Assembly (NCBI GenBank): GCA_045568015.1
Contig: JBJLBW010000018.1
Span: forward strand, 1 to 36,184
Direction of reading: 5' to 3'
Length of the DNA: 36,184 nucleotides
Source of the DNA: Candidatus Poseidoniales archaeon
Lineage (GTDB): Archaea > Thermoplasmatota > Poseidoniia > Poseidoniales > Thalassarchaeaceae
Every line of letters begins with the position of its first letter. Positions within the stretch are counted from its first letter, which is position 1. The notes beneath the pieces were generated by a model, which made no database searches, was not told the DNA's origin, and saw only the letters and a program-made list of their open reading frames with translations. Shown here one piece after another: positions 17,416-29,850 of the stretch. The position numbers and the translations under genes were made by a program.

Positions 17416-18270
17416 GTGGTTGTGAGCCAAAGCGTGTGGCCGAAGCGATTGTTGATTGCTGGCGCGATTATACTGAGTGTGTCCATCGCGGTAATGGTAT
17501 CTGTATGGCCATCTTGGATGGAGACTCTCGACCCTGAAGAAAACCATCTATTGAAATTGGATGGGAATGACAATGGGACCGTCAACCTCAGCAAAGAGAG
17601 CTCATACCTCTTATTTCGGCTTGAAAGTGGGGCTCATAACTGCACGGTAATCGAAGATGCCACTGGAACAGAAGTCACCATTGGCTCTCCGAGTTGGATT
17701 CAATCGGATCGAGAGGGGGTTGATGGTGAATGGTACTATGCTGTCGGTACATTCATTCCCGACGAAAGTGGTTCACATGACATTCAGAATAATGGCGGAG
17801 ATGATGATATTCTATGGGTCATCGACGAAATGAGTTTGGCCAGTAATTCTGATTCAACATACATTACTGGTGGCTGCCTTGGCATCATCCTTGGTGGGTG
17901 TCTATTGCCAATCGCTTTTGGATTGTGGATGAGTGGTCGAAAGAGTTCACAGAATACCGGACTTGTGATGCAAACTGCCAATGGGGTGATGATTCCAATC
18001 GCTCCAACGGATGGAGCTGTTCAGCAACGTGTGCCAACAACCGATGAAATCTGGCGAAGTGTGCATGGTGGAGAAGTACTCGACCTGACGGTTCAACAGG
18101 TGCCTGCCGGAGATGAAACCCCTGCACCTTTCGCTGATCGTCCCGACCGTGGGGGGGAATTGGCAAAGGTTGTCGATGATATTGAGACCGTCGAAGAATC
18201 AGTGCCGCAGTCTATCGAAGATGATGGCGAACCAACCGAAGGTGGTTGGAAGTCATGGGACGAGGGGTGA
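17416..18270 (+). CDS. Hypothetical membrane protein (N-terminal TM, extracellular beta domain, second TM, acidic cytoplasmic tail)
   Basis: Hydrophobic segments LLIAGAIILSVSIAVMVSVW and GGCLGIILGGCLLPIAFGLW. Fills the gap between top6A and the regulator. Start codon uncertain (GTG). Confidence 0.75.
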   Translation: MVVSQSVWPKRLLIAGAIILSVSIAVMVSVWPSWMETLDPEENHLLKLDGNDNGTVNLSKESSYLLFRLESGAHNCTVIEDATGTEVTIGSPSWIQSDREGVDGEWYYAVGTFIPDESGSHDIQNNGGDDDILWVIDEMSLASNSDSTYITGGCLGIILGGCLLPIAFGLWMSGRKSSQNTGLVMQTANGVMIPIAPTDGAVQQRVPTTDEIWRSVHGGEVLDLTVQQVPAGDETPAPFADRPDRGGELAKVVDDIETVEESVPQSIEDDGEPTEGGWKSWDEG

Positions 18271-18322: not shown

Positions 18323-19072
18323 GTGGTCACCGATTTTGACACCGCGCTTTCTATACTAGAAAATCGCACGCGGCGATCGATTTTGGAGCATCTTGTTCGT
18401 GAGGCGCATTACCCACTCCAACTCGCAGAATTACTCGATGTTTCGCAGCAAGCGATCATGAAACATCTGAAAGTACTCGAGAATGCTGGCTTTGTCGTCA
18501 GTGAAAAGGTCCCGAGTGAGAAAGGAGGGCCTCCAAAGCGAATCTATGCGATTACGCAATCCTTCTCCCTCCGACTCGATTTAGGACCTGATCTTTTTCG
18601 TGCAGAACATCGACAATTGCCACAAGGTGGCCCTACTCGACTTTCAAACCGATTACCCGAGGATGTGTTGGGTGTCGCTGAGCGCGTGGGAACTCGACGG
18701 AGGTTGCCCATGGCTGAAGCATTGGGGATGCTTTCAGAATTGAACGATGAACTAGACCGGCTCGATGCTGAGCGGGATGCGTTGATTGCGCTACACCAAC
18801 AAATCAAGCAAAAAGCTAGTCGTGTTGTTGATGATACATTCGAAGTTTACGAAGAGAGGCAGTTGGCCCATGTTTTGCTTGAAGCCCCAAGACGTCCCGT
18901 CGATTTAGATCAGTTCTGCGCGGGCATGCAAATTCAACCACAGCGCGCAGAGGAGATGATGGATACCTTACGTGGTGTGATGATGCGGCAACTGGGAGCT
19001 GAAACGGGGACAATCATCACATCGAACGACGATCGATTGCTGCCTTGGTGGTTAGCCAAGACTGATTCGTAG
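18323..19072 (+). CDS. ArsR-type winged-HTH regulator with coiled coil, COG1777 (Phr/HSR1-like) family
   Basis: LSILENRTRRSILEHL..HYPLQLAELLDVSQQAIMKHLKVLENAG..GGPPKRIY..SFSLRLDLGPDLF, followed by a heptad region LSELNDELDRLDAERDALIALHQQI. Confidence 0.85.
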   Translation: MVTDFDTALSILENRTRRSILEHLVREAHYPLQLAELLDVSQQAIMKHLKVLENAGFVVSEKVPSEKGGPPKRIYAITQSFSLRLDLGPDLFRAEHRQLPQGGPTRLSNRLPEDVLGVAERVGTRRRLPMAEALGMLSELNDELDRLDAERDALIALHQQIKQKASRVVDDTFEVYEERQLAHVLLEAPRRPVDLDQFCAGMQIQPQRAEEMMDTLRGVMMRQLGAETGTIITSNDDRLLPWWLAKTDS

Positions 19073-19084
19073 TGTGAATCGCAA

Positions 19085-22000
19085 TCAGAATCGAAGGTTG
19101 TCATCGATGGAAATCATGCTGGACTGAGCATCGACGCGAGCCAGTGCTTCTCGTCGACGGCCAACCATGACCATTCCTGCCACGGCAATCAATGCGATGG
19201 TAAGTAGCAAAATCATCGTTGGAACCGACCAGGTTCCTGCTGCTTCCATAGCGACATCGATCCAACCATTTTCACTCGAAAGTTCTCCGAGCTCCTTGCG
19301 GTTGTTGGCCTCATTCGCTTCAATAATCAGATTTCCGGGGTCGACGATGACTACAACGTCGTGGCTTCCCGCTGTAACCGGATAGAGAAGTGTAATCTCG
19401 ACCGCTTCAGCGGATCCACTATCATCGGGTGGCATCAATGCACCAATCACTTGGCGATAAGCGACATTTTCTTCAGAACAAATGTTGTTTCGAATATTGT
19501 CTTCAGTCTCGTCCTCACAGAGTACGATGTTGATGTCTGTCGCGTGAACGTTTCCTCGGTTGATGATTTCAACGTTTACTGGAATCATCTCTCCAACCGG
19601 TGCTTCGGTGCCACCGATTGCGGCCACGTCAAGGATTTCCAAATCGGGTGCACGGAGGCGGATACGGAGAACCTGCTCATTCGTGTCACAAGGATATACG
19701 TTGTCTAAGACGCCGTCATTGTCTGCATCAATTGTACAACTATCTGACCAAGATGCGGTTTCATCGGTGTCACCATTGGGTGAACCACCATAGTTTGACA
19801 ACACCTTGATGCCAATCTCTCGATTTGCGAGTGTGGCTGATGGGCTGATGTCTACGATCACCATGACTTGCACGGTTGTGTAAGCTGGCATTTCTGCTAG
19901 ACTCCATGTCCCATCTGCGTGATATGCACAACCGTATAACGGTGCAGATTCGCCAACCCCAAGTTCAGCACAAGGAATCTCGCGTGGCAATTCGGTATCG
20001 AAATCTTCGACCATTGCATATTCCACATTCCAACTCGACAACGAACCCATGCTTGGCTGATCATTCCAGTCGTTTCCACTCTTGGTGTGGTTGTGTAAGG
20101 TGGGAATGTCTGGTACGTTACCATTGTTGGTCACATTCAACAAATATCGCACTGTTCGACCCGGTGCCGTGGTCTTGATTTGGCTCTCCACGGTTTCATC
20201 CAACCAAATCTGCATGTCATGGAATTGGTTGACAGTGATGTCAAACAAAATCGCATCTCGCTCATCGGTTCCCTCGAAGTATTCCTCACTGAAGGCCTTC
20301 AGAACAACCTGATAGTCGCCAGCAACAATTTGTCCTGGAATGTTGATGACAACGTCGACTGTCTCTGCATCATCGCGTTCCAATTCGGATAGCGTCGCTC
20401 TTGGAATTTCAATGTCCCAAAGTAGTTGCGAACCATTGCTATCTGTAATCAGAGCGGTACGCATGTCGTATCGATCTGGTCCATTGCCGTTGTTTGTCGT
20501 GGTGATGGGAATCACCAAGGCTTGGCCGGGGTCGACGGAATGTGTTGTCGATGGTGCGTCCATCTCCAAATCATAGACGTGTTCGACATTCGTTGATAGA
20601 ATCACGGCATCCGATACGCGGGAAGCACCTTGCAGGTGTGCTTTCACAGTAATTGCTGGACCGAGTCCTGCACTTGCATTGAGTGGTGCACACACAACGA
20701 CTGCGACCTCGTATGGGACATTGATTTGGGACCAATGCCGTGGTTTACTCATCTCGCCCTCATTCCCACCCGGGGCGTTACTAAAGTCCAAATTAACTGT
20801 CCAATGATCGTATTGCCACTCATTCATGGGCATACCTTCTGGCTTGGCATCAGGTGCGCCAGGCGTGGTGAAGATGAGATATCCTGGTGCGAATTTCTTG
20901 ATGACATCAATTGTGTAAGTGTGGCACTCGCCGGGCATGACATATTCTGATGTATCGAATATTTCGAAGATGATGTTGCCTGTAGAACGAATACTAACGT
21001 TCACCCACAATTCCAACACATCGTATGTACCCTTATCCAAACTCTTGACGGGTTCGCCCATAGACCAACCCTTGAGATAGAGAGCGAATGTACCTGGATC
21101 TTGTGTTGTCGGCACAGAAATCTCGAGATTCTTTGTGACCGATTGTCCGGGGTCCAAGCTAACCATCAATGGGAAGTTGATCTGCCAACCCCATGGCAAC
21201 AACCATTCTTGCTGACCCTGCAATGTTGTTGGGTCATAGAATGCAAATGTGTCAAACACGTTACCCGTATTGGTAATCGTAATCGAGAAAATTGCGGTTT
21301 CACCCTGTTCGACGTCGGACTGATAGTGACTTGTTTCCAACTCAATGCCGTGAACCACGTCCATCAGAGTCAATGTCAATCTATCACTCCGAATCGCTGG
21401 ATCTTTGTAAGATACGGCAGACACTACAATTGGAGCGAGTTCGTCCTCATTTGCTTGGTAAATCGATGGGGCGCGGACGCGCAAATAGACCCTTACGGAT
21501 TCACCTCCAAGCAAGAAGATTGGAGTTTCAGGGAAAATCGCAGTGTGGTTGTCCGCGAAGAATAAATTCGCCGTCCAGTTCACAGGAACGCCTGAAAGGT
21601 TCACTGCAAAGGTATCCGATACCAAATCGATCGGGCCTGGTGTTGAATTGTTCACTGTCAAGTTGTAAATCGTTTGTTCACCCGGTTCAATCACGTGATA
21701 GTACGTCTCATCGTCTGCAAGTTCAACATCCACTTGGCCCGTTAGGACGTGGGTGTAACAAAGCGTATAGGCACCATTGTTAGAATTCTCATTGCATTTA
21801 TTGGTGTCAGACCACGCAATATGCGCTCCGCTACCGAGGTCATTGGAAAATGCAGGTGGTTGCGATAGTTCTGGATTGCGACCACTGTTCGGGCCGAGTT
21901 TGTCACTGTTCCATTCTGTCACATCGACGCGCTCCCAAGGATCCAATACTGCAGCTGCAATACTGTTCAATGGCCAGTCACCAACGTCGTTGGTGTGGTT

Positions 22001-24100
22001 CAAACGAGTATACATGATGGATTCGCCTTGAGATGTGTTTGAATTCTCAAGCCAAGAAATGTGAACGTTGTTTTGGTTATCCGCAAGAACTTGTGGCATG
22101 TACGAAGACGCTCTGTAGTAATCATTCGGATTGACGTTTGCTGACCCTTCAACATACGATATTCGAGTGTCTACAATCTTCTTGATTCCGTAGGTGGGCA
22201 GACCTCCTGAAACGCCGTCCCACTCGGCTGCACCACGAAGGCGGAGGCGAGAGTAGTACACCTCGTAGTTGTCATCCTTGTCAAACCCGTAGTCTCGGGT
22301 GTCCATCCACGTAAGGTGGGTATCACCACTGTTGTCAATGGCCAAAGATGGGTGCAGACTGAATGCGTCATCCAGTGTGACACGGGTGTCGTTCACTACG
22401 ACTAGGTGGCCGTAGCCATTCGCATCTTGGCTGGGGCCCAAATCCTCAGTGTATCTGTTGTTAGATTCATCTGTTCCAGATTGACCGTAAACCCAGCCTG
22501 GTGCTGGGCTCTGAATCTTCGCATATGGATCCAAAACTGTCATGTAAATCTCACGACTGTTGTTTGTTGCGAGGAAAACCATTGCCTCAACCAATGTAGC
22601 CATGTTGTTGGCTGAAGATGCGGGGAAAGCATACACTTGCCCTCCAGCATCAGTATTTCGAGTTGTGGAACCTGGACAAACTCTCGGGTTCATGTTCACC
22701 TGCCCATTTGGACATTGTGCGAGATCCTTCATGTGGCTTGCAACTTGGTTGTTTGCTCCCCATGATGAACCATAAATCCCTACAGGGATTACTCCTGCAT
22801 CAACGCAAGCGTCGTGTGCTTCGTTGATACTGGCAATGTCATCTGATTGTTGTGGTGGGTCTCCACCTTTGGGGCCTTCATCACTGATTGGAATAACAAT
22901 CTTTGTCGCATTGGGATTCCATTTGTGATCGTTTGTAGTCGGTGGGTTGCCGGGTACGTTGCCTTGTGCATCTACCCAAGACAAACATGACCAAGCACTT
23001 CCTGGTCCCCAATCTTCACCTTGGTAGCCGCCACTTTGTGCGCCACCATTGTAGATGGTTGAGTGTAGTTTGATGAGGCCGCCTGAGTCATCTCCTTGCG
23101 TAAGGTGATTGGCTCGTGGGTTCTCGTGGTGTGGGGGTGTAGCACATGCGCCGCTTGTTGCAGCACTTGGGAAAAATCCACCCAATGCATACAATGTTTC
23201 GAATACCGAAATGTTCGCCTCTTCAAGCATTGGCTTGATTCCAGTGAAGGAACCTCCGCTGGACCATTGGCCTCCGTAGAACACAACACACATGTCAGCC
23301 CATTCTGAATACATGGAACCTGATGTGTCAATTACAGAAACAATCTCTACCTTGCCACCTCGCGTATCGTCCCATGCAATCTGCACAAGGTCGTCGGCAT
23401 CAATAGCGATGTCCGGGTGACCCTTGTGACCGATGATTGGGGTTAGCAATGTGCTGTCAATCGCTGTGATTGCTTCACGTGATGCTTCATCGATTTCCAG
23501 GAATTTGTAGTAAATCTGGGGCTGTTGGAAGTATTTGTCGTGGCGGTCATAGGAGTCTTCCCAAACGATGTGGGCGTTGTCCTGACTGTCAACAGCGATT
23601 GCTGGCCAATCGCGGTTCTGCTGACGACGGGTGATTTCAGTGTCATCAATGATTGAGATTGTGCCATCATCTGCTGAGCTGCCATCTTGATCATCCAAGC
23701 TAGGGTCGAGTAGCGTGTAGAGGATTTCGTGTTGGCTGGCTTTGTTTGCCCAAGTTACGTGGACTCGGTCTTCCGAATCAATATCGATGTCTGGGTGCCA
23801 TGCGCGATGGCCTCCACCATTGGAAATTTGTGTGACGTCGATGACTGTCTGAGCACGTGGATCGAGCATTGTGTAATACAGATGCTGTGTGTTACGTGAC
23901 CAAACGACGTGGATATTCCCGTCACTGTCACTTGTCATTGATGCCATACGTTCGTTGACGGCTCCACCATCTACAAGCTGCACTGCATCGGTAATTACAA
24001 CCGATGCACCTTGCGCAACTGGTGGTGTGTAACCAATCAACAGCGTACTCATTACGAAAATCATCACCAGTGTGATGCTGCTACGTTTTGTATTTTCCAT
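19085..24100 (-). CDS. Large cell-surface protein: signal peptide, 7-repeat beta-propeller with inserted vWA domain, NEW3/CARDB-type Ig-like repeats, C-terminal TM anchor
   Basis: Seven P.I..D.....H..W...I.Y repeats, MIDAS DTSGSM and ISDEGP, repeated xxPG....I.ITN.GN..D units, CARDB-like PDLEI..VDPGNLIIEANEANN, TM ILLLTIALIAVAGMVMV and an RRR stop-transfer. Confidence 0.85.
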   Translation of the reverse strand: MENTKRSSITLVMIFVMSTLLIGYTPPVAQGASVVITDAVQLVDGGAVNERMASMTSDSDGNIHVVWSRNTQHLYYTMLDPRAQTVIDVTQISNGGGHRAWHPDIDIDSEDRVHVTWANKASQHEILYTLLDPSLDDQDGSSADDGTISIIDDTEITRRQQNRDWPAIAVDSQDNAHIVWEDSYDRHDKYFQQPQIYYKFLEIDEASREAITAIDSTLLTPIIGHKGHPDIAIDADDLVQIAWDDTRGGKVEIVSVIDTSGSMYSEWADMCVVFYGGQWSSGGSFTGIKPMLEEANISVFETLYALGGFFPSAATSGACATPPHHENPRANHLTQGDDSGGLIKLHSTIYNGGAQSGGYQGEDWGPGSAWSCLSWVDAQGNVPGNPPTTNDHKWNPNATKIVIPISDEGPKGGDPPQQSDDIASINEAHDACVDAGVIPVGIYGSSWGANNQVASHMKDLAQCPNGQVNMNPRVCPGSTTRNTDAGGQVYAFPASSANNMATLVEAMVFLATNNSREIYMTVLDPYAKIQSPAPGWVYGQSGTDESNNRYTEDLGPSQDANGYGHLVVVNDTRVTLDDAFSLHPSLAIDNSGDTHLTWMDTRDYGFDKDDNYEVYYSRLRLRGAAEWDGVSGGLPTYGIKKIVDTRISYVEGSANVNPNDYYRASSYMPQVLADNQNNVHISWLENSNTSQGESIMYTRLNHTNDVGDWPLNSIAAAVLDPWERVDVTEWNSDKLGPNSGRNPELSQPPAFSNDLGSGAHIAWSDTNKCNENSNNGAYTLCYTHVLTGQVDVELADDETYYHVIEPGEQTIYNLTVNNSTPGPIDLVSDTFAVNLSGVPVNWTANLFFADNHTAIFPETPIFLLGGESVRVYLRVRAPSIYQANEDELAPIVVSAVSYKDPAIRSDRLTLTLMDVVHGIELETSHYQSDVEQGETAIFSITITNTGNVFDTFAFYDPTTLQGQQEWLLPWGWQINFPLMVSLDPGQSVTKNLEISVPTTQDPGTFALYLKGWSMGEPVKSLDKGTYDVLELWVNVSIRSTGNIIFEIFDTSEYVMPGECHTYTIDVIKKFAPGYLIFTTPGAPDAKPEGMPMNEWQYDHWTVNLDFSNAPGGNEGEMSKPRHWSQINVPYEVAVVVCAPLNASAGLGPAITVKAHLQGASRVSDAVILSTNVEHVYDLEMDAPSTTHSVDPGQALVIPITTTNNGNGPDRYDMRTALITDSNGSQLLWDIEIPRATLSELERDDAETVDVVINIPGQIVAGDYQVVLKAFSEEYFEGTDERDAILFDITVNQFHDMQIWLDETVESQIKTTAPGRTVRYLLNVTNNGNVPDIPTLHNHTKSGNDWNDQPSMGSLSSWNVEYAMVEDFDTELPREIPCAELGVGESAPLYGCAYHADGTWSLAEMPAYTTVQVMVIVDISPSATLANREIGIKVLSNYGGSPNGDTDETASWSDSCTIDADNDGVLDNVYPCDTNEQVLRIRLRAPDLEILDVAAIGGTEAPVGEMIPVNVEIINRGNVHATDINIVLCEDETEDNIRNNICSEENVAYRQVIGALMPPDDSGSAEAVEITLLYPVTAGSHDVVVIVDPGNLIIEANEANNRKELGELSSENGWIDVAMEAAGTWSVPTMILLLTIALIAVAGMVMVGRRREALARVDAQSSMISIDDNLRF

Positions 24101-24184
24101 GTTCTTCGACCCCCGGAGAGACTCTCCAGTGCTTTGGAAACGCTGTTTCCCTCCTACTTAACCGAACCCCTTTGCGGTCAGTTA

Positions 24185-24199
24185 CGCGCGAGCGCGCGT
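24185..24199. repeat. Alternating-CG palindromic element CGCGCGAGCGCGCGT, copy 2
   Basis: ACGCGCG-AG-CGCGCGT is a 7-bp inverted repeat (24184-24199). The core is identical to 161-175. Confidence 0.6.
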
Positions 24200-24208
24200 G
24201 CGAGAGGG

Positions 24209-24829
24209 TTATGCCCACTCAGATGGGTCGAAACCAGTTCCGAATCCGCCGGTTTCATCGGTTTCAACCTCTTTGGTTGAATGAGCGGTATCTGGTGCTG
24301 GTTGAGGGCCGCCTTTGGCCCAATCATCCACTGGCCCAGGTTTTCCAACGCCGGGACCATATGAAAATTTAATTTCATGAATAACTGACAATTTTGAAAG
24401 CCACAAACGGCGGAGTGTTTGCATCACTTCGTTCTGTGTGACACCGTCAAACCATGTCGGCATTGAAAGGTTGAATGCTTGAAGTGGGCCCGGTTTTTCT
24501 TCGCCGTGGCCCACATGCAACACCCAATCAACGTGTGATCGGGTTAGTTGAAGTCTGGTCTCATGTAGCCATTCTTCCCAACCATCGGGATCATTCACTG
24601 CGTGTTTGGACATCTCATCTTGTTGTCCTGAATCGACTTGTGTGACGCTTGAAATCACCAAGAGGTTTCGCTTCTTGGGAGACAATACGTTGAACAGGTG
24701 GCCATGTTTTGTTGGGGGGTATCGAACCAGAAAGTGGAAGTCGGCCCGGGGGTCTTCACGTTCCTTGATCTCAAGTCCTTCGCCAGATAACCAGTTTCGG
24801 ACGCGTTCCTCAATATCTCGAGTCGCCAT
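24209..24829 (-). CDS. DUF2299-like archaeal conserved protein
   Basis: IEERVRNWLSGEGLEIK..DFHFLVRYP..FNVLSPK..WFDGVTQNEVMQTLRR resembles the archaeal DUF2299 family (by recall). Confidence 0.6.
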   Translation of the reverse strand: MATRDIEERVRNWLSGEGLEIKEREDPRADFHFLVRYPPTKHGHLFNVLSPKKRNLLVISSVTQVDSGQQDEMSKHAVNDPDGWEEWLHETRLQLTRSHVDWVLHVGHGEEKPGPLQAFNLSMPTWFDGVTQNEVMQTLRRLWLSKLSVIHEIKFSYGPGVGKPGPVDDWAKGGPQPAPDTAHSTKEVETDETGGFGTGFDPSEWA

Positions 24830-26879: not shown

Positions 26880-28163
26880 TCAGGGCGAGGTGAAGGTCAA
26901 TGTCAATTCAGCAAGTGTAAACAAATCACCGCCCTGATTCATTGGATCGTGGCTTGCGACGAGGAAACTGTCACGGTCGATTGGGGCGATTGTGAGCATT
27001 CTGTGTGGGTCTGTTGTCGTGATATCGTGGCGAATCCACGTCGAGTCCTGTTGTTCAAGAAGGATTACTTGAACCCTTTCAGTTTCTTCAGAAAATTGGC
27101 CTTCGGTTTGCAAACAAATCAGTACCATGTCAAGATCTCCGTCGTTGTCAATATCCGAAATGGCAGTGTCGTAAGCCCCCCAGTTTCGAGTGATGTCATG
27201 GTGGGTGAATTCTCCAGCCCCATTATTTTCCAACCAAGCAACGCCATGCAACTGATTTGGATTGATTTCAGGTGGTGTGTCAAAATCCATTGTATCTCCA
27301 TTGGTGAAGATGATATCATTGTCACCATCTTTGTCCAGATCGGCAATCCGCAGGCCGCTCATTCCATAATATGTTAAATTGGAATCATAGAGTGATTCAG
27401 AGATGAAGTTCCCCTGACCATCATTTCGATACAGCATGATCTCTTCAGCGTCCTGAGATAAGACCGCCACGATGTCTAAGTCTTCATCCCCATCAACATC
27501 CACGGGTATGGCGTGAATGCTTCCTGAGCGGTTATCCAACACGTGTTGAGTCCAATTTCCTTCTTCGTTCTCAAGCCATGAGACTGTCCCTTCATCATGT
27601 CCGAATTCACAGACAGTGAGGTCGATGTCACCGTCGCCGTCGAAATCTCCAGGTTCTGCACAAACTGTACGACCGATTCCTTCGAGGATGGTGGTAGATG
27701 TTTGTGTTCGATAATCGAAGAGGATAACCCGCCCTTGTTTTTCATTGGAAGGATGGAGGATTCCAATGTCAGATACAATCCAAACATTGGTGCCGTTTGC
27801 TCCAAGTGCACCCTCGGATACGCGTACTGGCGCAAATGATGAGTTCTCTGACAAATTGTAGGATTCGGATACTGCCGTGCCCCAGTGTGGACAAGTGGAC
27901 TCGAAAGCACAGGATGGGAGGGTGGCGGTACTGAATATTCCTTCAAGCGGTTCTGTGAAGACAATTACTTGGCCACCCTGATCTTGAATGATACCGATGT
28001 TTGCCACGACCGGAGTGGTGTCAACAACTCCGAACAGGATCGGTGTAATCGTCGCGTTCCACCCGGGTTCCTCTTCAGACACTTCTGAAGTTTCCGAGGC
28101 TAAGCATCCCGACAGGAAAAGACAGAGGCAAATGATTGCGAATGATGTACTGCTCCTTCGCAT
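26880..28163 (-). CDS. FG-GAP/VCBS repeat lipoprotein
   Basis: Start at MRRSSTSFAIICLCLFLSGC (lipobox LSGC). Ca-binding repeats GDFDGDGDIDL, VDVDGDEDLDI, ADLDKDGDNDI and SDIDNDGDLDM. The ORF-track 5' extension to 28397 overlaps the upstream gene and is spurious. Confidence 0.85.
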   Translation of the reverse strand: MRRSSTSFAIICLCLFLSGCLASETSEVSEEEPGWNATITPILFGVVDTTPVVANIGIIQDQGGQVIVFTEPLEGIFSTATLPSCAFESTCPHWGTAVSESYNLSENSSFAPVRVSEGALGANGTNVWIVSDIGILHPSNEKQGRVILFDYRTQTSTTILEGIGRTVCAEPGDFDGDGDIDLTVCEFGHDEGTVSWLENEEGNWTQHVLDNRSGSIHAIPVDVDGDEDLDIVAVLSQDAEEIMLYRNDGQGNFISESLYDSNLTYYGMSGLRIADLDKDGDNDIIFTNGDTMDFDTPPEINPNQLHGVAWLENNGAGEFTHHDITRNWGAYDTAISDIDNDGDLDMVLICLQTEGQFSEETERVQVILLEQQDSTWIRHDITTTDPHRMLTIAPIDRDSFLVASHDPMNQGGDLFTLAELTLTFTSP

Positions 28164-28215
28164 GGGGAGACGGAGTGGCCTTGGCCTCTTATCATTGGCT
28201 ACCACAAAGGCGTAT

Positions 28216-29850
28216 TCAGTTGCGTAGTGGTAGTGTGCCCGGGTATGCGAAAGAGTGGAATGAATGGTGCGATTGTTCATCATCCGTTTCAGGGAAATCT
28301 GTTCGGACATGAGAACCTCGGCTCTCTTTGCGTTCGGCTGCAGAACCCACAGCACTCCTTGCAACATAGACCAAACCTTTCGTTCGCAGCATTGCAACCA
28401 ACTCGGTATTCATGACTGGGCTGGTATCGGAAATAGCCATCTTGGTTTCACTTAGTTCTTGGAGTATTGATTGTGCCTTTTCCAATCCCCCTGCAGATCT
28501 TTCGTGGCCCATGTGTGCCTGCATCGTAGCGGCAAGTTGGGATTGGATATTACCCGTACTTGTGCCATCTGAACCCGCCTCTGCCAAAATCGAATCGTGC
28601 AAGTGATGAGCCTCGGTGAGCATGCCTGAAATTGCGCTGGAGCCAACAAACTTTGATCCGGATGCATGGTTGGCTGCGGTAGCACCTGCAACGGAGCCGC
28701 TTGTCAATGCACCCAGTAGATGGTCGCCACTGTTCATTGATGCACCATGTAAACCGGTGCAAGCGGCATCACCTGCCGCGAAAAGGCCAGGGATAATGTC
28801 CCACTCAAAACTGCAGACGTTTCCTGATGGATTGGTCGGAAGCCCTCCAATCGTCGTGCTGACAATCGGCTTGAGGGGGATGAGTTGTTGGGAGTAGTCA
28901 ATTCCACATCGAGACAACAATGCATCTGCAACATTTGCGAACCAAGGGGCGTCTGTGCGTGAAATAGCGGTCAAATCAAGGGAGCCGCCGCCTGATTTCA
29001 AAATCTCTCGAGCGAGCGCATCCGGCCCGTCATCCATCGAAATCGGTTGGCCATCTGAGCCGTTTACGATACCGCCTGAACCGAGGACATCGAGTGGGAT
29101 CTGTAGATTGGTGTCCGCTACCGTGAGAGGGTGGTATGATGTGAATTCCAAATCCGACAAATAATGGCCTAATTTGAGGAACAAATGAGCGGATGTGCCC
29201 ATCCCGATTCCATCTCCATTCCATGCGCTTTGGAAGCCGGAACCCGCCAATACAACAGCTTTTGATTGAATCGCGAATATTTCCCCCGATTGGATATCCA
29301 GGGCGATGAGGCCGCACACATCGAACCCGTCATCGGAACTTGAGAATCTCGGACCGCCTTTCGTATTATCATGATCTTTGTGAACGATATCAAGAATCTC
29401 GATATCGCCTCTACGGGGGATGTTACGCTTGATGCATTGTTCTTCGAGGATGGTGCGAACTTCGCGAAGTGTCGAATCACCGGTGCTAGCGGTTCGTGGA
29501 TTGGATTGTCCTGGCAATTGACCGAGGTGAGGCGAACCGTTTCGATCCCTTCGAAGGTTGAGACCCCAACGTTCCAATTCGGCCAAATGGGCTACAGCGG
29601 AATTTGTCGATGATGCAACAACATCCGTCTCGCACAAATCGGCACCAACTCTTCGAGTGTCCGCTGCATGTTCAGAGGGATTGGTTTCTCCGGAAGAGGT
29701 TGCCAATCCACAACTCGTGGTGTCATCAACGAATGCAGAAGAGGACGAGGGGGTGAGGACCGTGACCGTTGCACCTTCATCGGATGCTGCGATTGCGGCC
29801 CGCAAAGATGCAATGCTACCACCAACGACGACGACATCCCATGCCTGCAT
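28216..29850 (-). CDS. SdhA/FrdA/NadB-fold flavoprotein homolog with a degenerate active site
   Basis: DVVVVGG..RAAIAA, LERWG, KAVVLAG, DLEF..YHP, GGLPT, PGLFAAGDAAC.GLHGA and RKESRGSHVRTDFPE. Key catalytic residues are substituted (see findings). Confidence 0.85.
   Translation of the reverse strand: MQAWDVVVVGGSIASLRAAIAASDEGATVTVLTPSSSSAFVDDTTSCGLATSSGETNPSEHAADTRRVGADLCETDVVASSTNSAVAHLAELERWGLNLRRDRNGSPHLGQLPGQSNPRTASTGDSTLREVRTILEEQCIKRNIPRRGDIEILDIVHKDHDNTKGGPRFSSSDDGFDVCGLIALDIQSGEIFAIQSKAVVLAGSGFQSAWNGDGIGMGTSAHLFLKLGHYLSDLEFTSYHPLTVADTNLQIPLDVLGSGGIVNGSDGQPISMDDGPDALAREILKSGGGSLDLTAISRTDAPWFANVADALLSRCGIDYSQQLIPLKPIVSTTIGGLPTNPSGNVCSFEWDIIPGLFAAGDAACTGLHGASMNSGDHLLGALTSGSVAGATAANHASGSKFVGSSAISGMLTEAHHLHDSILAEAGSDGTSTGNIQSQLAATMQAHMGHERSAGGLEKAQSILQELSETKMAISDTSPVMNTELVAMLRTKGLVYVARSAVGSAAERKESRGSHVRTDFPETDDEQSHHSFHSFAYPGTLPLRN

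What the first reader, a model, noticed from the sequence alone, without database searches (positions are those of the whole stretch)
19085..24100. Integrin-alpha-like architecture in an archaeal surface protein: seven-repeat propeller with an inserted MIDAS vWA (I-like) domain on an Ig stalk
Seen: exactly seven repeats, SDSDGNIHVVW..LYY, HPDIDIDSEDRVHVTW..ILY, WPAIAVDSQDNAHIVW..IYY, HPDIAIDADDLVQIAW..[insert]..EIY, HPSLAIDNSGDTHLTW..VYY, MPQVLADNQNNVHISW..IMY and PPAFSNDLGSGAHIAW..LCY. Repeat 4 is split between its W strand and its EIY strand by about 260 aa (nt about 23350-22560). The insert starts VSVIDTSGSM (DxSxS at D258), contains IVIPISDEGP and has several cysteines, so it is a vWA domain inserted into the propeller. 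About six Ig-like units follow (IEPGEQ, VEQGET, VMPGEC, VDPGQA, TAPGRT, CARDB-like), then one TM and a cytoplasmic tail of about 24 aa. Established: metazoan I-domain integrin alpha chains have a 7-blade propeller with an inserted vWA domain, Ig-like legs, a TM and a short tail. Inference: the blades are not FG-GAP type and the insertion point differs, so this is likely a convergent metal-dependent adhesin or receptor for particles, cells or proteins. This is my best candidate for an undescribed system in the window.
Basis: partly seen in the sequence, partly recalled or inferred. Interest (0 to 1): 0.82.

Follow-up and report, generated by a model that had tools for sequence, protein, structure and literature searches.

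The report
Archaeal surface protein with integrin-like head
A very large membrane-anchored surface protein, present in almost every genome of the abundant ocean archaea called Marine Group II, carries a metal-binding adhesion-type domain inserted into a seven-bladed propeller, a design that resembles animal integrins but appears to have arisen independently.

Summary
ORF 19085-24100 (-) encodes a 1671-aa type-I membrane protein with seven blade repeats. Repeat 4 is interrupted by about 268 aa. AlphaFold models and Foldseek indicate one closed 7-blade propeller of BNR/GH145/lectin type, not FG-GAP. The insert alone (pLDDT 86) matches vWA folds in the PDB, with integrin beta I domains on top.

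D258, S260, S262, E362 and D407 are all present in 58 of 74 aligned family rows. They are lost together in divergent paralogs that keep the scaffold and all six cysteines. This argues for a MIDAS-type metal site with Glu where alpha-I domains have Thr. I could not inspect coordinates, so the site geometry is inferred.

At least four CARDB-like beta-sandwich units follow, then one TM helix and a conserved 23-aa tail. The gene was found in 149 of 151 Poseidoniales genomes at a syntenic site. It was found in 0 of 165 other Thermoplasmatota genomes sampled.

Function is untested. My best reading is a metal-dependent surface binding protein; an S-layer or envelope protein is the main rival. My literature searches found no description of it. 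Verdict: a real, convergent integrin-alpha-I-like architecture, a new variant of a known kind.

The parts
19085..24100 (-). Whole gene, 1671 aa plus stop. Type-I membrane surface protein, pI 4.3, 182.6 kDa.
   Evidence: ORF list and translation; composition; 577 homologs at E<=0.001, the 120 listed at 60-93% identity over the head.
24008..24100 (-). N-terminal signal-like segment (residues 1-31).
   Evidence: Hydrophobic window at residues 7-29. This is the least conserved region, 37% mean identity. No signal-peptide predictor was run, so cleavage is inferred.
23360..24007 (-). Propeller blades 1-3 and the first two strands of blade 4 (residues 32-247).
   Evidence: Blade motifs at residues 58, 102, 165 and 228. 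AF2 pLDDT is 80-95 here. Foldseek matches 7-bladed propellers.
22556..23359 (-). Inserted vWA-fold domain (residues 248-515) with long conserved loops and six conserved cysteines.
   Evidence: AF2 of residues 244-528 gave pLDDT 86.2 and pTM 0.86. The PDB hits listed at ranks 1-50 are vWA-type domains, integrin beta I first. Most named viral-library hits are VWFA proteins. hhalign against 16 canonical PF00092 domains gave 74-83% probability. The Pfam VWA model itself scores only 11.9 bits against a cut-off of 23.8.
23315..23329 (-). D258-T-S260-G-S262, the DxSxS motif at the end of vWA strand beta1.
   Evidence: Invariant in the 25-row MGII alignment. hhalign aligns it to the canonical DxSGS. 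Co-varies with E362 and D407.
23015..23017 (-). E362, candidate fifth MIDAS ligand. It sits just before the helix WGPGSAWSCL.
   Evidence: Present in all 58 rows that have D-S-S...D, and replaced in 5 of 8 full-length rows with a degenerate motif. The assignment is inferred, not seen in coordinates.
22871..22885 (-). S406-D407-E-G-P at the end of vWA strand beta4 (KIVIPISDEGP). D407 is the MIDAS Asp.
   Evidence: hhalign aligns it to the canonical 'iiVlTDG' motif at 83% probability, E 8.5e-6. Conservation and co-loss are shown.
21731..22555 (-). Last two strands of blade 4 and blades 5-7 (residues 516-790).
   Evidence: Motifs at residues 583, 668 and 748, and third-strand motifs at 518, 614, 695 and 780. 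AF2 strands are listed, with lower confidence (pLDDT 40-90). Foldseek alignments of about 780 columns to 7-blade propellers span this half as well.
19265..21730 (-). Stalk (residues 791-1612). At least four CARDB/DUF7507-like beta-sandwich units plus two unassigned segments.
   Evidence: Pfam CARDB 43.3 bits, DUF7507 32.7 and NPCBM_assoc 29.0, all above their cut-offs. Piecewise scan. Internal hhalign S2-S4 92%, S2-S5 74%, S4-S5 64%. Weak match of the first segment to archaeal bundling protein AbpX, E 0.023.
19157..19219 (-). Single C-terminal transmembrane helix (about residues 1628-1648).
   Evidence: Hydropathy maximum of 2.68 at residues 1629-1647; aligned in homologs.
19088..19156 (-). 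Cytoplasmic tail, 23 aa, pattern RRxEAxxRxxE(Q/K)SS, then an acidic stretch and usually a terminal F.
   Evidence: Tail alignment of 25 homologs. Mean identity is 48%, but the pattern and length are kept.

Best explanation
The gene encodes a type-I membrane protein displayed on the cell surface of a Marine Group II (Poseidoniales, Thalassarchaeaceae) archaeon.

**Proposed layout**
- A Sec-type signal exports the protein, and one C-terminal helix anchors it.
- A stalk with at least four CARDB-like beta-sandwich domains holds the head away from the membrane.
- The head is one closed 7-bladed propeller of the BNR/GH145/lectin structural type.
- A divergent, disulfide-rich vWA domain is spliced into the hairpin between the second and third strands of blade 4. 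By general propeller topology (inference) this puts it on the ligand-binding 'top' face.

**Proposed mechanism**
- The vWA domain carries a MIDAS-type site: D258, S260, S262, E362 and D407. The Glu stands where alpha-I domains have Thr, as in integrin beta I domains (recalled).
- In seawater the site would hold Mg2+ or Ca2+. Its coordination would be completed by a carboxylate of a ligand.
- The ligand could be an acidic residue of a protein, or an acidic group of an algal or particle polymer. The neighbouring propeller face may contribute to binding.
- The conserved cytoplasmic tail may tie the protein to an intracellular partner.

**Shown:** ORF, repeats, fold assignments, motif conservation and co-variation, phyletic distribution.
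**Inferred:** site geometry, metal, ligand, orientation, any signalling.

The resemblance to I-domain integrin alpha chains is convergent.
For: - **Topology:** signal-like N-terminus, one C-terminal TM helix and a 23-aa tail.
- **One propeller:** The head model has pTM 0.69. Foldseek hits of about 730-816 alignment columns to 7-bladed propellers reach target-normalised TM 0.54-0.61 (5mum GH145 0.58, 5mxf PHL lectin 0.61, 7esl PL42 0.55, 5uam PL25 0.54). Hits that cover only one half (about 200-230 columns) reach 0.33-0.38.
- **vWA fold:** The insert model has pLDDT 86.2. The PDB hits listed at ranks 1-50 are vWA-type domains: integrin beta8/beta3/beta1/beta2 I domains at E from 2.1e-4 with probability 0.97-1.0, alphaM I domain with TMt 0.51, and BatB, CMG2, collagen VI, TFIIH p44, Sec23/24 and Rpn10. 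In the viral library the best hit has E 3.3e-5, and most named hits among the top 25 are VWFA proteins.
- **Independent profile test:** hhalign against 16 canonical PF00092 domains from other Thermoplasmatota aligns VIDTSGSM to VlDrSGSM and KIVIPISDEGP to iiVlTDG, with probability 74% (global) and 83% (local), E 3.4e-6 and 8.5e-6.
- **Site behaves as a unit:** D-S-S-E-D is complete in 58 of 74 rows. In 8 full-length rows with a degenerate DxSxS, D407 is replaced in 7 and E362 in 5. WGPG..WAC.SW and all six cysteines are kept.
- **Strong constraint:** The gene was found in 149 of 151 Poseidoniales genomes, 57 of 58 high-quality ones and 22 of 22 genera. The head is 63-69% identical across families, similar to topoisomerase VI B.
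- **Language-model lead:** ESM Atlas feature neighbours include VWA and 'integrin beta chain VWA' clusters. Scores are 0.82-0.87, so this is a lead only.
Against: - No experiment of any kind supports this reading.
- The Pfam VWA model does not reach its threshold (11.9 against 23.8 bits). Neither a PDB sequence search nor a profile search finds any vWA protein.
- Foldseek E-values are modest (2e-4) and query-normalised TM is about 0.4. The domain is about 90 aa larger than classical vWA domains.
- I could not obtain model coordinates. The five proposed ligands were never shown to be close in space, and E362 is assigned by position and co-variation only.
- The rows with a lost motif belong to a few clades, perhaps two to four independent losses, so the co-variation rests on few events.
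- Blades 5-7 and the whole-head insert region were of low confidence in the head model.
- Near-universal, mostly single-copy presence with housekeeping-level conservation fits a structural envelope protein at least as well as an adhesin.
- The propeller's nearest structural relatives include enzymes (GH145, PL42, PL25, sialidases), so a catalytic role is not excluded.
Confidence: 0.55

Rival explanations
1. It is the main envelope (S-layer-type) protein of Marine Group II archaea. The TM-anchored beta-sandwich stalk would act as a pillar and the propeller head would tile into a canopy. The vWA metal site would make cation-dependent contacts between neighbouring subunits, not with outside ligands.
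For: - Found in 149 of 151 genomes of the order. Usually one match per genome in one family and 1-4 in the other.
- It sits at a fixed syntenic site among housekeeping genes in 7 of 8 loci examined.
- It is large, acidic (pI 4.3), has a signal peptide and a C-terminal anchor, and is conserved evenly along its whole length.
- In the key MGII genomics papers I searched, no S-layer protein of the group is discussed. 'S-layer' occurs 0 times in PMC6461757 and PMC6336850, passages only.
Against: - N-glycosylation sequons are not enriched: 17 observed against 15.1 expected from composition.
- 60% identity between families is unusually high for S-layer proteins, which as a rule diverge quickly (general knowledge).
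- Paralogs without the metal-site residues exist in the same genomes.
- No abundance, lattice or oligomer evidence was obtainable here.
Confidence: 0.25
2. It is a surface-anchored carbohydrate-active enzyme or lectin. The propeller would be the working part, cleaving or binding algal polysaccharides like its structural neighbours GH145, PL42, PL25, sialidases and PHL lectins. The vWA domain would be an accessory.
For: - The best structural matches of the head are glycoside hydrolases, polysaccharide lyases, sialidases and fucose-binding lectins.
- Relatives of the blades give sub-threshold to marginal BNR_4 (PF15892) hits.
- MGII are thought to use high-molecular-weight algal matter (abstracts and passages of PMC6336850 and PMC6461757).
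Against: - Sequence identity to these structures is 5-12%.
- No Pfam or NCBIfam enzyme family is hit.
- No catalytic residues could be mapped.
- The residues that co-vary as a unit lie in the vWA domain, not in the propeller.
Confidence: 0.1
3. It is a true, horizontally related homolog of metazoan I-domain integrin alpha subunits, not a convergent look-alike.
For: The overall order of parts is the same: propeller with inserted vWA, beta-sandwich legs, TM helix and short tail.
Against: - The blades are not FG-GAP. There is no Pfam hit here, although FG-GAP_3 is detected in the neighbouring gene by the same scan.
- The insertion lies inside blade 4, not between blades 2 and 3 (the integrin position is recalled).
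- The stalk domains are CARDB/DUF7507 type.
- The vWA domain is closer in structure to beta I domains than to alpha I domains.
- The segment was found only in Poseidoniales among 201 Thermoplasmatota genomes sampled.
Confidence: 0.02

Closest known systems
Metazoan integrin alpha subunits with an inserted alpha-I (vWA) domain (alphaL, alphaM, alphaX, alphaE, alpha1, alpha2)
   Same: - A seven-bladed propeller with a vWA domain spliced into it.
- A DxSxS-type metal site (PMC12422189, passages).
- Beta-sandwich legs, one TM helix and a short cytoplasmic tail.
- AlphaM and alphaL I domains are among the Foldseek hits, with TMt 0.44-0.53.
   Different: - The blades are BNR/GH145-like, not FG-GAP.
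- The insertion is within blade 4, between strands 2 and 3, not between blades 2 and 3 (the integrin position is recalled).
- A Glu, not a Thr, is the likely fifth ligand.
- The legs are CARDB-type.
- No GFFKR-like tail motif (read from the sequence; the motif itself is recalled).
- No beta-subunit partner is known.
Integrin beta subunit beta-I domain
   Same: - These are the best structural matches of the insert: beta8, beta3, beta1 and beta2, E 2e-4 to 5e-3, probability up to 1.0.
- Both are vWA domains enlarged by extra loops, and both are inserted into another domain.
- Both would have an acidic residue (Glu) at the fifth MIDAS position (for integrin beta this is recalled).
   Different: - The host domain is a propeller blade, not the hybrid domain.
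- Sequence identity is only 8-13%.
- ADMIDAS and SyMBS sites were not identified here.
- There is no PSI, hybrid or EGF module.
Bacterial pilus-associated vWA adhesins: Gram-positive tip pilins of the RrgA/GBS104 type, and PilY1 of type IV pili
   Same: - A vWA/MIDAS domain is presented at the end of a stalk or fibre for adhesion.
- RrgA-type vWA domains carry inserted arms and are nested in an Ig-like domain (recalled).
- PilY1 combines a vWA domain and a beta-propeller (titles and abstract starts of PMC11331964 and PMC11525922 in the listing).
   Different: - Those proteins are pilus subunits, not TM-anchored proteins.
- In PilY1 the vWA domain and the propeller are in tandem, not nested.
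- No sequence relationship was detected.
Seven-bladed BNR-like propellers: GH145 (5mum, 5mvh), PL42 rhamnose-glucuronate lyase (7esl), PL25 ulvan lyase (5uam), Photorhabdus PHL/PLL lectins (5mxf)
   Same: Best whole-propeller structural matches, TMt 0.54-0.61, E 1.7e-7 to 1.5e-4. Blade relatives give weak BNR_4 hits.
   Different: - Identity is 5-12%.
- None of these has a vWA insert.
- Catalytic or sugar-binding residues were not mapped.
- P0001 itself has no Pfam hit anywhere in the propeller.
Archaeal S-layer glycoproteins (for example the haloarchaeal and thaumarchaeal Ig-domain S-layer proteins)
   Same: A large, acidic, secreted protein that is C-terminally anchored, rich in beta-sandwich domains and core to its lineage.
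   Different: - As far as I recall, no described S-layer protein has a vWA domain inside a propeller head.
- Sequons are not enriched.
- The tail is a true TM helix plus a 23-aa cytoplasmic segment. No PGF motif is seen in the sequence, so it is not a PGF-CTERM-type signal (the motif is recalled).

Membership tests
Integrin alpha subunit with I domain | Seven-bladed beta-propeller head | tested here: met
   Seven blade motifs. The head model matches 7-bladed propellers across both halves, TMt 0.54-0.61.
Integrin alpha subunit with I domain | Blades of FG-GAP type | tested here: not met
   No FG-GAP family hit even at E<=10 for the head. The same library finds FG-GAP_3 at 1.8e-21 in ORF 26880-28397.
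Integrin alpha subunit with I domain | vWA domain inserted between blades 2 and 3 | tested here: not met
   The insert lies inside blade 4, after VQIAW243 and before REIYMTVL517-524. The integrin position is recalled.
Integrin alpha subunit with I domain | Heterodimer with a beta subunit; GFFKR-type membrane-proximal tail motif | not testable with these tools
   No partner could be sought by structure. The tail reads RRREALARVD..., with no GFFKR (the motif is recalled).
vWA domain superfamily | Alpha/beta Rossmann-like vWA fold | tested here: met
   Insert model pLDDT 86.2. The PDB hits listed at ranks 1-50 are vWA-type domains. Most named viral-library hits are VWFA proteins.
vWA domain superfamily | Sequence membership in Pfam VWA (PF00092) above the gathering score | tested here: not met
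   11.9 bits against a cut-off of 23.8, E 0.27. Profile-profile comparison with 16 canonical domains gives 74-83% probability.
vWA domain superfamily | MIDAS: DxSxS after beta1, Thr or Glu before helix alpha3/4, Asp after beta4 | tested here: inconclusive
   DxSxS (258-262) and D407 align with the canonical motifs and are conserved. E362 co-varies with them. The 3D convergence could not be inspected because coordinates are not returned.
BNR_4 / GH145-PL42-like propellers | Pfam PF15892 above threshold, or mapped catalytic residues | tested here: not met
   No PF15892 hit for P0001. Blade relatives score 18-33 bits against a cut-off of 27.3. The similarity is structural only.
CARDB domain | Pfam PF07705 above the gathering score | tested here: met
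   43.3 bits against 22.7, residues 1485-1602.
Archaeal S-layer glycoprotein | Secreted, C-terminally anchored, lineage-wide | tested here: met
   Signal-like N-terminus and TM anchor. Found in 149 of 151 genomes.
Archaeal S-layer glycoprotein | Forms a regular lattice and is among the most abundant proteins | not testable with these tools
   Only a few short RNA-library contigs could be laid, and they do not measure abundance.

The most novel reading that the evidence does not exclude
Marine Group II archaea independently invented an integrin-like transmembrane receptor. A MIDAS vWA domain on a propeller head would bind algal or particle ligands in a cation-dependent way. The conserved cytoplasmic tail (RRxEAxxRxxEQSS, then an acidic stretch and a terminal F) would pass occupancy to an intracellular partner. 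This would make it a core adhesion and sensing device of the most abundant surface-ocean archaea.
Probability: 0.12. Interest if true: 0.9.

Novelty: new variant of a known kind. Interest (0 to 1): 0.62.

Why it matters
- Marine Group II archaea are among the most abundant archaea in surface oceans, and none is in culture. How they meet particles, algae and viruses is unknown.
- This gene is nearly universal in the order and as conserved as a topoisomerase subunit. Public sources name it only 'CARDB domain-containing' or 'hypothetical'.
- A vWA domain nested in a propeller on a stalk gives a concrete, testable handle. The five proposed metal-site residues can be mutated, the head can be expressed, and ligand panels can be screened.
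- It is also a clean case of convergent evolution of the integrin alpha-I design from unrelated blades and a different insertion point.
- Natural 'knock-out' paralogs have lost the metal site but keep the scaffold.

Tried and rejected
- **Sequence searches of the PDB.** A single-sequence search and a 74-row profile search found no vWA or propeller protein. They returned only CARDB-like NMR structures, at E 0.003-0.01, and AbpX at E 0.023-0.03.
- **NCBIfam.** It gave only sub-threshold hits: choice_anch_T at 61.8 against 70, and PDIAV_lipo at 36.6 against 90. A literature search for 'PDIAV' gave nothing relevant.
- **Whole-head AF2 with 25 close homologs.** The insert came out below pLDDT 50. 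I therefore refolded the insert alone with a 74-row alignment.
- **Stand-alone relatives of the insert.** All 97 hits of 156-499 aa were 44-95% identical pieces of the same family, many on short contigs, and none had a Pfam domain. No stand-alone donor was found with this word-based search.
- **ESM Atlas.** Scores were 0.82-0.87, below the 0.9 level, so this is a lead only. The Atlas holds no structure for this protein.
- **RNA evidence.** Two seawater metatranscriptome runs from one study held small shares (0.09 and 0.06). When laid, they gave 7 and 8 short contigs. Three of these, 151-265 nt long, were identical to the window (20495-20759, 21094-21244, 23120-23279). A third run gave one partial piece. 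Contigs from RNA libraries may contain DNA and do not measure expression, so I treat transcription as not shown.
- **Operon and neighbour logic.** DUF2299 and an ArsR-type HTH gene flank the gene in 7 of 8 loci. The whole region is syntenic, including topoisomerase VI and the acyltransferase, so adjacency is not evidence of a functional link.
- **Literature searches for a prior description.** I ran the searches, and looked for terms in PMC6461757, PMC11706807, PMC6864105 and PMC6336850. None describes this protein.


Full report
**1. The observation**

ORF 19085-24100 on the minus strand is open and encodes 1671 aa. A blade pattern (aromatic or His, Pro, x, hydrophobic..D...H, hydrophobic, x, W) occurs six times in the first 790 residues. 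With the looser first repeat SDSDGNIHVVW this makes seven. In 2000 shuffles of the protein the mean count was 0.0005 and the maximum 1.

Each repeat also has a third-strand motif of the xIYYxxL kind. The one belonging to repeat 4 (REIYMTVL, residue 517 onward) lies about 274 residues after its W strand (VQIAW243). The intervening stretch starts VEIVSVIDTSGSM, with D258. It contains KIVIPISDEGP (residues 400-410) and six cysteines.

The protein has a hydrophobic N-terminal signal-like segment. It has one C-terminal TM helix at about 1628-1648 and a 23-aa tail. Its pI is 4.3.

**2. Organism and distribution**

Neighbouring genes include both topoisomerase VI subunits. Sources name the closest homologs, at 60-93% identity over the head, as Candidatus Thalassarchaeaceae, Poseidoniaceae or Poseidoniales archaea, that is Marine Group II.

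- With the head as query at E<=1e-20, 149 of 151 genomes of the order have a match. This includes 57 of 58 high-quality genomes and 22 of 22 genera. The two genomes without a match are 94% and 84% complete. One family mostly shows one match per genome, and the window's family shows 1-4.
- The window's own 57%-complete genome has one copy.
- With the insert plus flanks as query at E<=1e-10, 36 of 201 Thermoplasmatota genomes match. These are the window's genome plus 14 of 14 and 21 of 21 genomes of the two main Poseidoniales families. None of the other 165 matches.
- The exhaustive representative search found 1158 proteins at E<=0.001. Full-head relatives reach down to 33% identity. Many other hits match only the blades and have different architectures.
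- The gene sits at a fixed syntenic site in 7 of 8 loci from other genera. The order is topoisomerase VI B and A, a variable gene, an ArsR-type HTH gene, this gene, DUF2299, an acyltransferase. The one locus from the small third family is not syntenic.

**3. The propeller**

Pfam and NCBIfam find nothing above threshold in the head. An AlphaFold2 model of residues 30-800 from 25 homologs had mean pLDDT 63 and pTM 0.69. Blades 1-4 were confident (80-95), while blades 5-7 and the insert were weaker.

Foldseek against the PDB gave its best long alignments to single seven-bladed propellers:

| Target | Family | Target-normalised TM |
|---|---|---|
| 5mum | GH145 | 0.58 |
| 5mxf | PHL lectin | 0.61 |
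| 7esl | PL42 lyase | 0.55 |
| 5uam | PL25 ulvan lyase | 0.54 |

These alignments have about 730-816 columns, so they span both halves of the head. Alignments confined to one half (about 200-230 columns) reach only 0.33-0.38. This is what one closed ring predicts, and it argues against two separate half-domains.

The DSSP string shows four strands per blade. The last blade has three C-terminal strands, and there is a short N-terminal strand ahead of blade 1. This is compatible with the usual 'velcro' closure, but that is an inference.

Blade relatives elsewhere give weak BNR_4 hits. No FG-GAP signal exists here, although the same scan detects FG-GAP_3 in ORF 26880-28397.

**4. The insert**

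Pfam VWA scores only 11.9 bits. I refolded residues 244-528 alone with a 74-row alignment that includes relatives down to 33% identity. The model has pLDDT 86.2 and pTM 0.86, with an alternating beta/alpha pattern.

- **PDB search.** The hits listed at ranks 1-50 in the PDB are vWA-type domains. Integrin beta8, beta3, beta1 and beta2 I domains come first (E from 2.1e-4, probability 0.97-1.0). The alphaM and alphaL I domains follow (target TM 0.44-0.53), then BatB, CMG2, collagen VI, TFIIH p44, Sec23/24 and Rpn10.
- **Viral library.** Most named hits among the top 25 are VWFA proteins.
- **Independent test.** I collected 16 canonical PF00092 domains from other Thermoplasmatota genomes and compared profiles. 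hhalign gave 83% probability locally, with KIVIPISDEGP aligned to iiVlTDG. It gave 74% globally, with VIDTSGSM aligned to VlDrSGSM.

The E-values are modest, and the domain is about 90 residues larger than classical vWA domains. I conclude that the fold assignment is sound but that the lineage is very divergent.

**5. The metal site**

In the 25-row MGII alignment D258, S260, S262, the SDEGP motif and long loop motifs are invariant. Across the 74 rows the pattern D258-S260-S262-E362-D407 is complete in 58.

Eight full-length rows have a degenerate DxSxS: P0124, P0130, P0135, P0137, P0138, P0139, P0271 and P0284.
- D407 is replaced in 7 of these 8.
- E362 is replaced in 5 of these 8.
- The neighbouring WGPG..WAC.SW motif and all six cysteines are kept.

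E362 lies immediately before the helix WGPGSAWSCL. This is the position of the MIDAS Thr in alpha-I domains and, as I recall, of a Glu in integrin beta I domains, which are the best structural matches. The joint loss indicates that the five residues act as one unit. However, the losses fall in few clades, and I could not see model coordinates. The geometry, the metal and the 'complete MIDAS' remain inferred.

Canonical PF00092 domains were not found in 21 sampled Poseidoniales genomes. They were found in 68 of 121 genomes across the phylum.

**6. Stalk, anchor and tail**

- Pfam finds DUF7507, NPCBM_assoc and CARDB above their thresholds.
- Profile comparison of six stalk segments links four of them: S2-S4 92%, S2-S5 74%, S4-S5 64% and S2-S6 38%. 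Segments 791-915 and 1046-1170 remain unassigned.
- Identity to homologs is 69% for the propeller, 68.5% for the vWA domain, 64% for the stalk, 58% for CARDB and 48% for the tail.
- The tail keeps its length and the pattern RRxEAxxRxxE(Q/K)SS, then an acidic stretch and usually a terminal F.

**7. How it most likely works**

The parts fit a membrane-anchored protein that holds a propeller and vWA head away from the cell on a beta-sandwich stalk. The insertion is in a strand 2-3 hairpin. In propellers these hairpins lie on the same face as the 4-1 loops, which is the usual ligand face (recalled). The vWA domain should therefore cap that face, as the alpha-I domain does in integrins.

A MIDAS-type site would be metal-loaded in seawater and would bind a ligand carboxylate. 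Whether that ligand is external (particles, algal polymers, other cells, viruses) or a neighbouring copy of the same protein (an S-layer-type lattice) cannot be decided here.

- Universality, near single-copy state and housekeeping-level conservation favour a structural role.
- The lack of sequon enrichment (17 against 15.1 expected), the high conservation of the head and the existence of paralogs without the site favour a specific binding function.

I put a metal-dependent surface binding protein at 0.55, an envelope or S-layer protein at 0.25, an enzyme or lectin with the propeller as the working part at 0.10, and true integrin homology at 0.02.

**8. Comparison and novelty**

The design matches I-domain integrin alpha chains in the order of parts only. 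Blade family, insertion point, leg domains and the probable fifth ligand all differ, and the segment is confined to one archaeal order. It is therefore convergent.

Other analogues are integrin beta I domains (nearest fold), Gram-positive tip pilins with nested vWA domains (recalled), and PilY1, where the vWA domain and the propeller are in tandem (listing).

My literature searches and term look-ups in four MGII papers found no description of this protein. PMC6461757 discusses adhesion only through archaella, thrombospondin and flotillin genes (passages). Supplements were closed and could mention the gene. Public names are 'CARDB domain-containing protein' or 'hypothetical protein'.

I rate it a new variant of a known kind, with interest 0.62.

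Noticed in passing
window 26880-28397 (-): A 505-aa ORF with three FG-GAP_3 repeats (E 1.8e-21) lies 2.8 kb upstream. These are the true integrin-alpha-type blades. It has no counterpart in the eight syntenic or homologous loci of other genera, so it looks like a genus-specific insertion.
   Followed up: partly
window 24209-24829 (-): A DUF2299 gene lies directly upstream on the same strand, with a 108-nt gap. It is kept next to the big gene in 7 of 8 loci at 54-59% identity. The whole region is syntenic, so a functional link is open.
   Followed up: partly
window 18323-19072 (+): An ArsR/HTH_20-type regulator with a long C-terminal extension (249 aa) converges on the gene. Its stop is 12 nt from the gene's stop. 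It is conserved in 7 of 8 loci at 44-60% identity.
   Followed up: partly
window 24101-24208: The intergenic stretch upstream of the start codon holds a GC-rich palindrome (cgcacgcgcgctcgcgcgt) just after the DUF2299 stop. No promoter analysis was possible, because the scanner covers only bacterial sigma-70 sites.
   Followed up: no
P0122, P0123, P0124, P0127; window about 19688-19750 (residues about 1451-1471): More distant family members replace the distal stalk with runs of thrombospondin-type-3-like D-x-D-x-D-G repeats. P0001 has one weak TSP_3-like motif (Pfam E 0.17). These may be the 'thrombospondin' genes reported for MGII in PMC6461757.
   Followed up: no
G005, G007, G011, G015, G023, G025, G027: Genomes of the window's family carry one to three extra paralogs at 38-53% identity over the insert. 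Clades such as P0130/P0284 and P0135/P0137/P0271 have lost the metal-site residues. One copy in G023 (C1:644274-645215) has an in-frame TAG.
   Followed up: partly
window 17416-18270 (+): A 284-aa ORF with predicted membrane segments has no Pfam hit and only 28% identity to the gene at the same position in two other loci. This slot between topoisomerase VI A and the HTH gene is variable.
   Followed up: no
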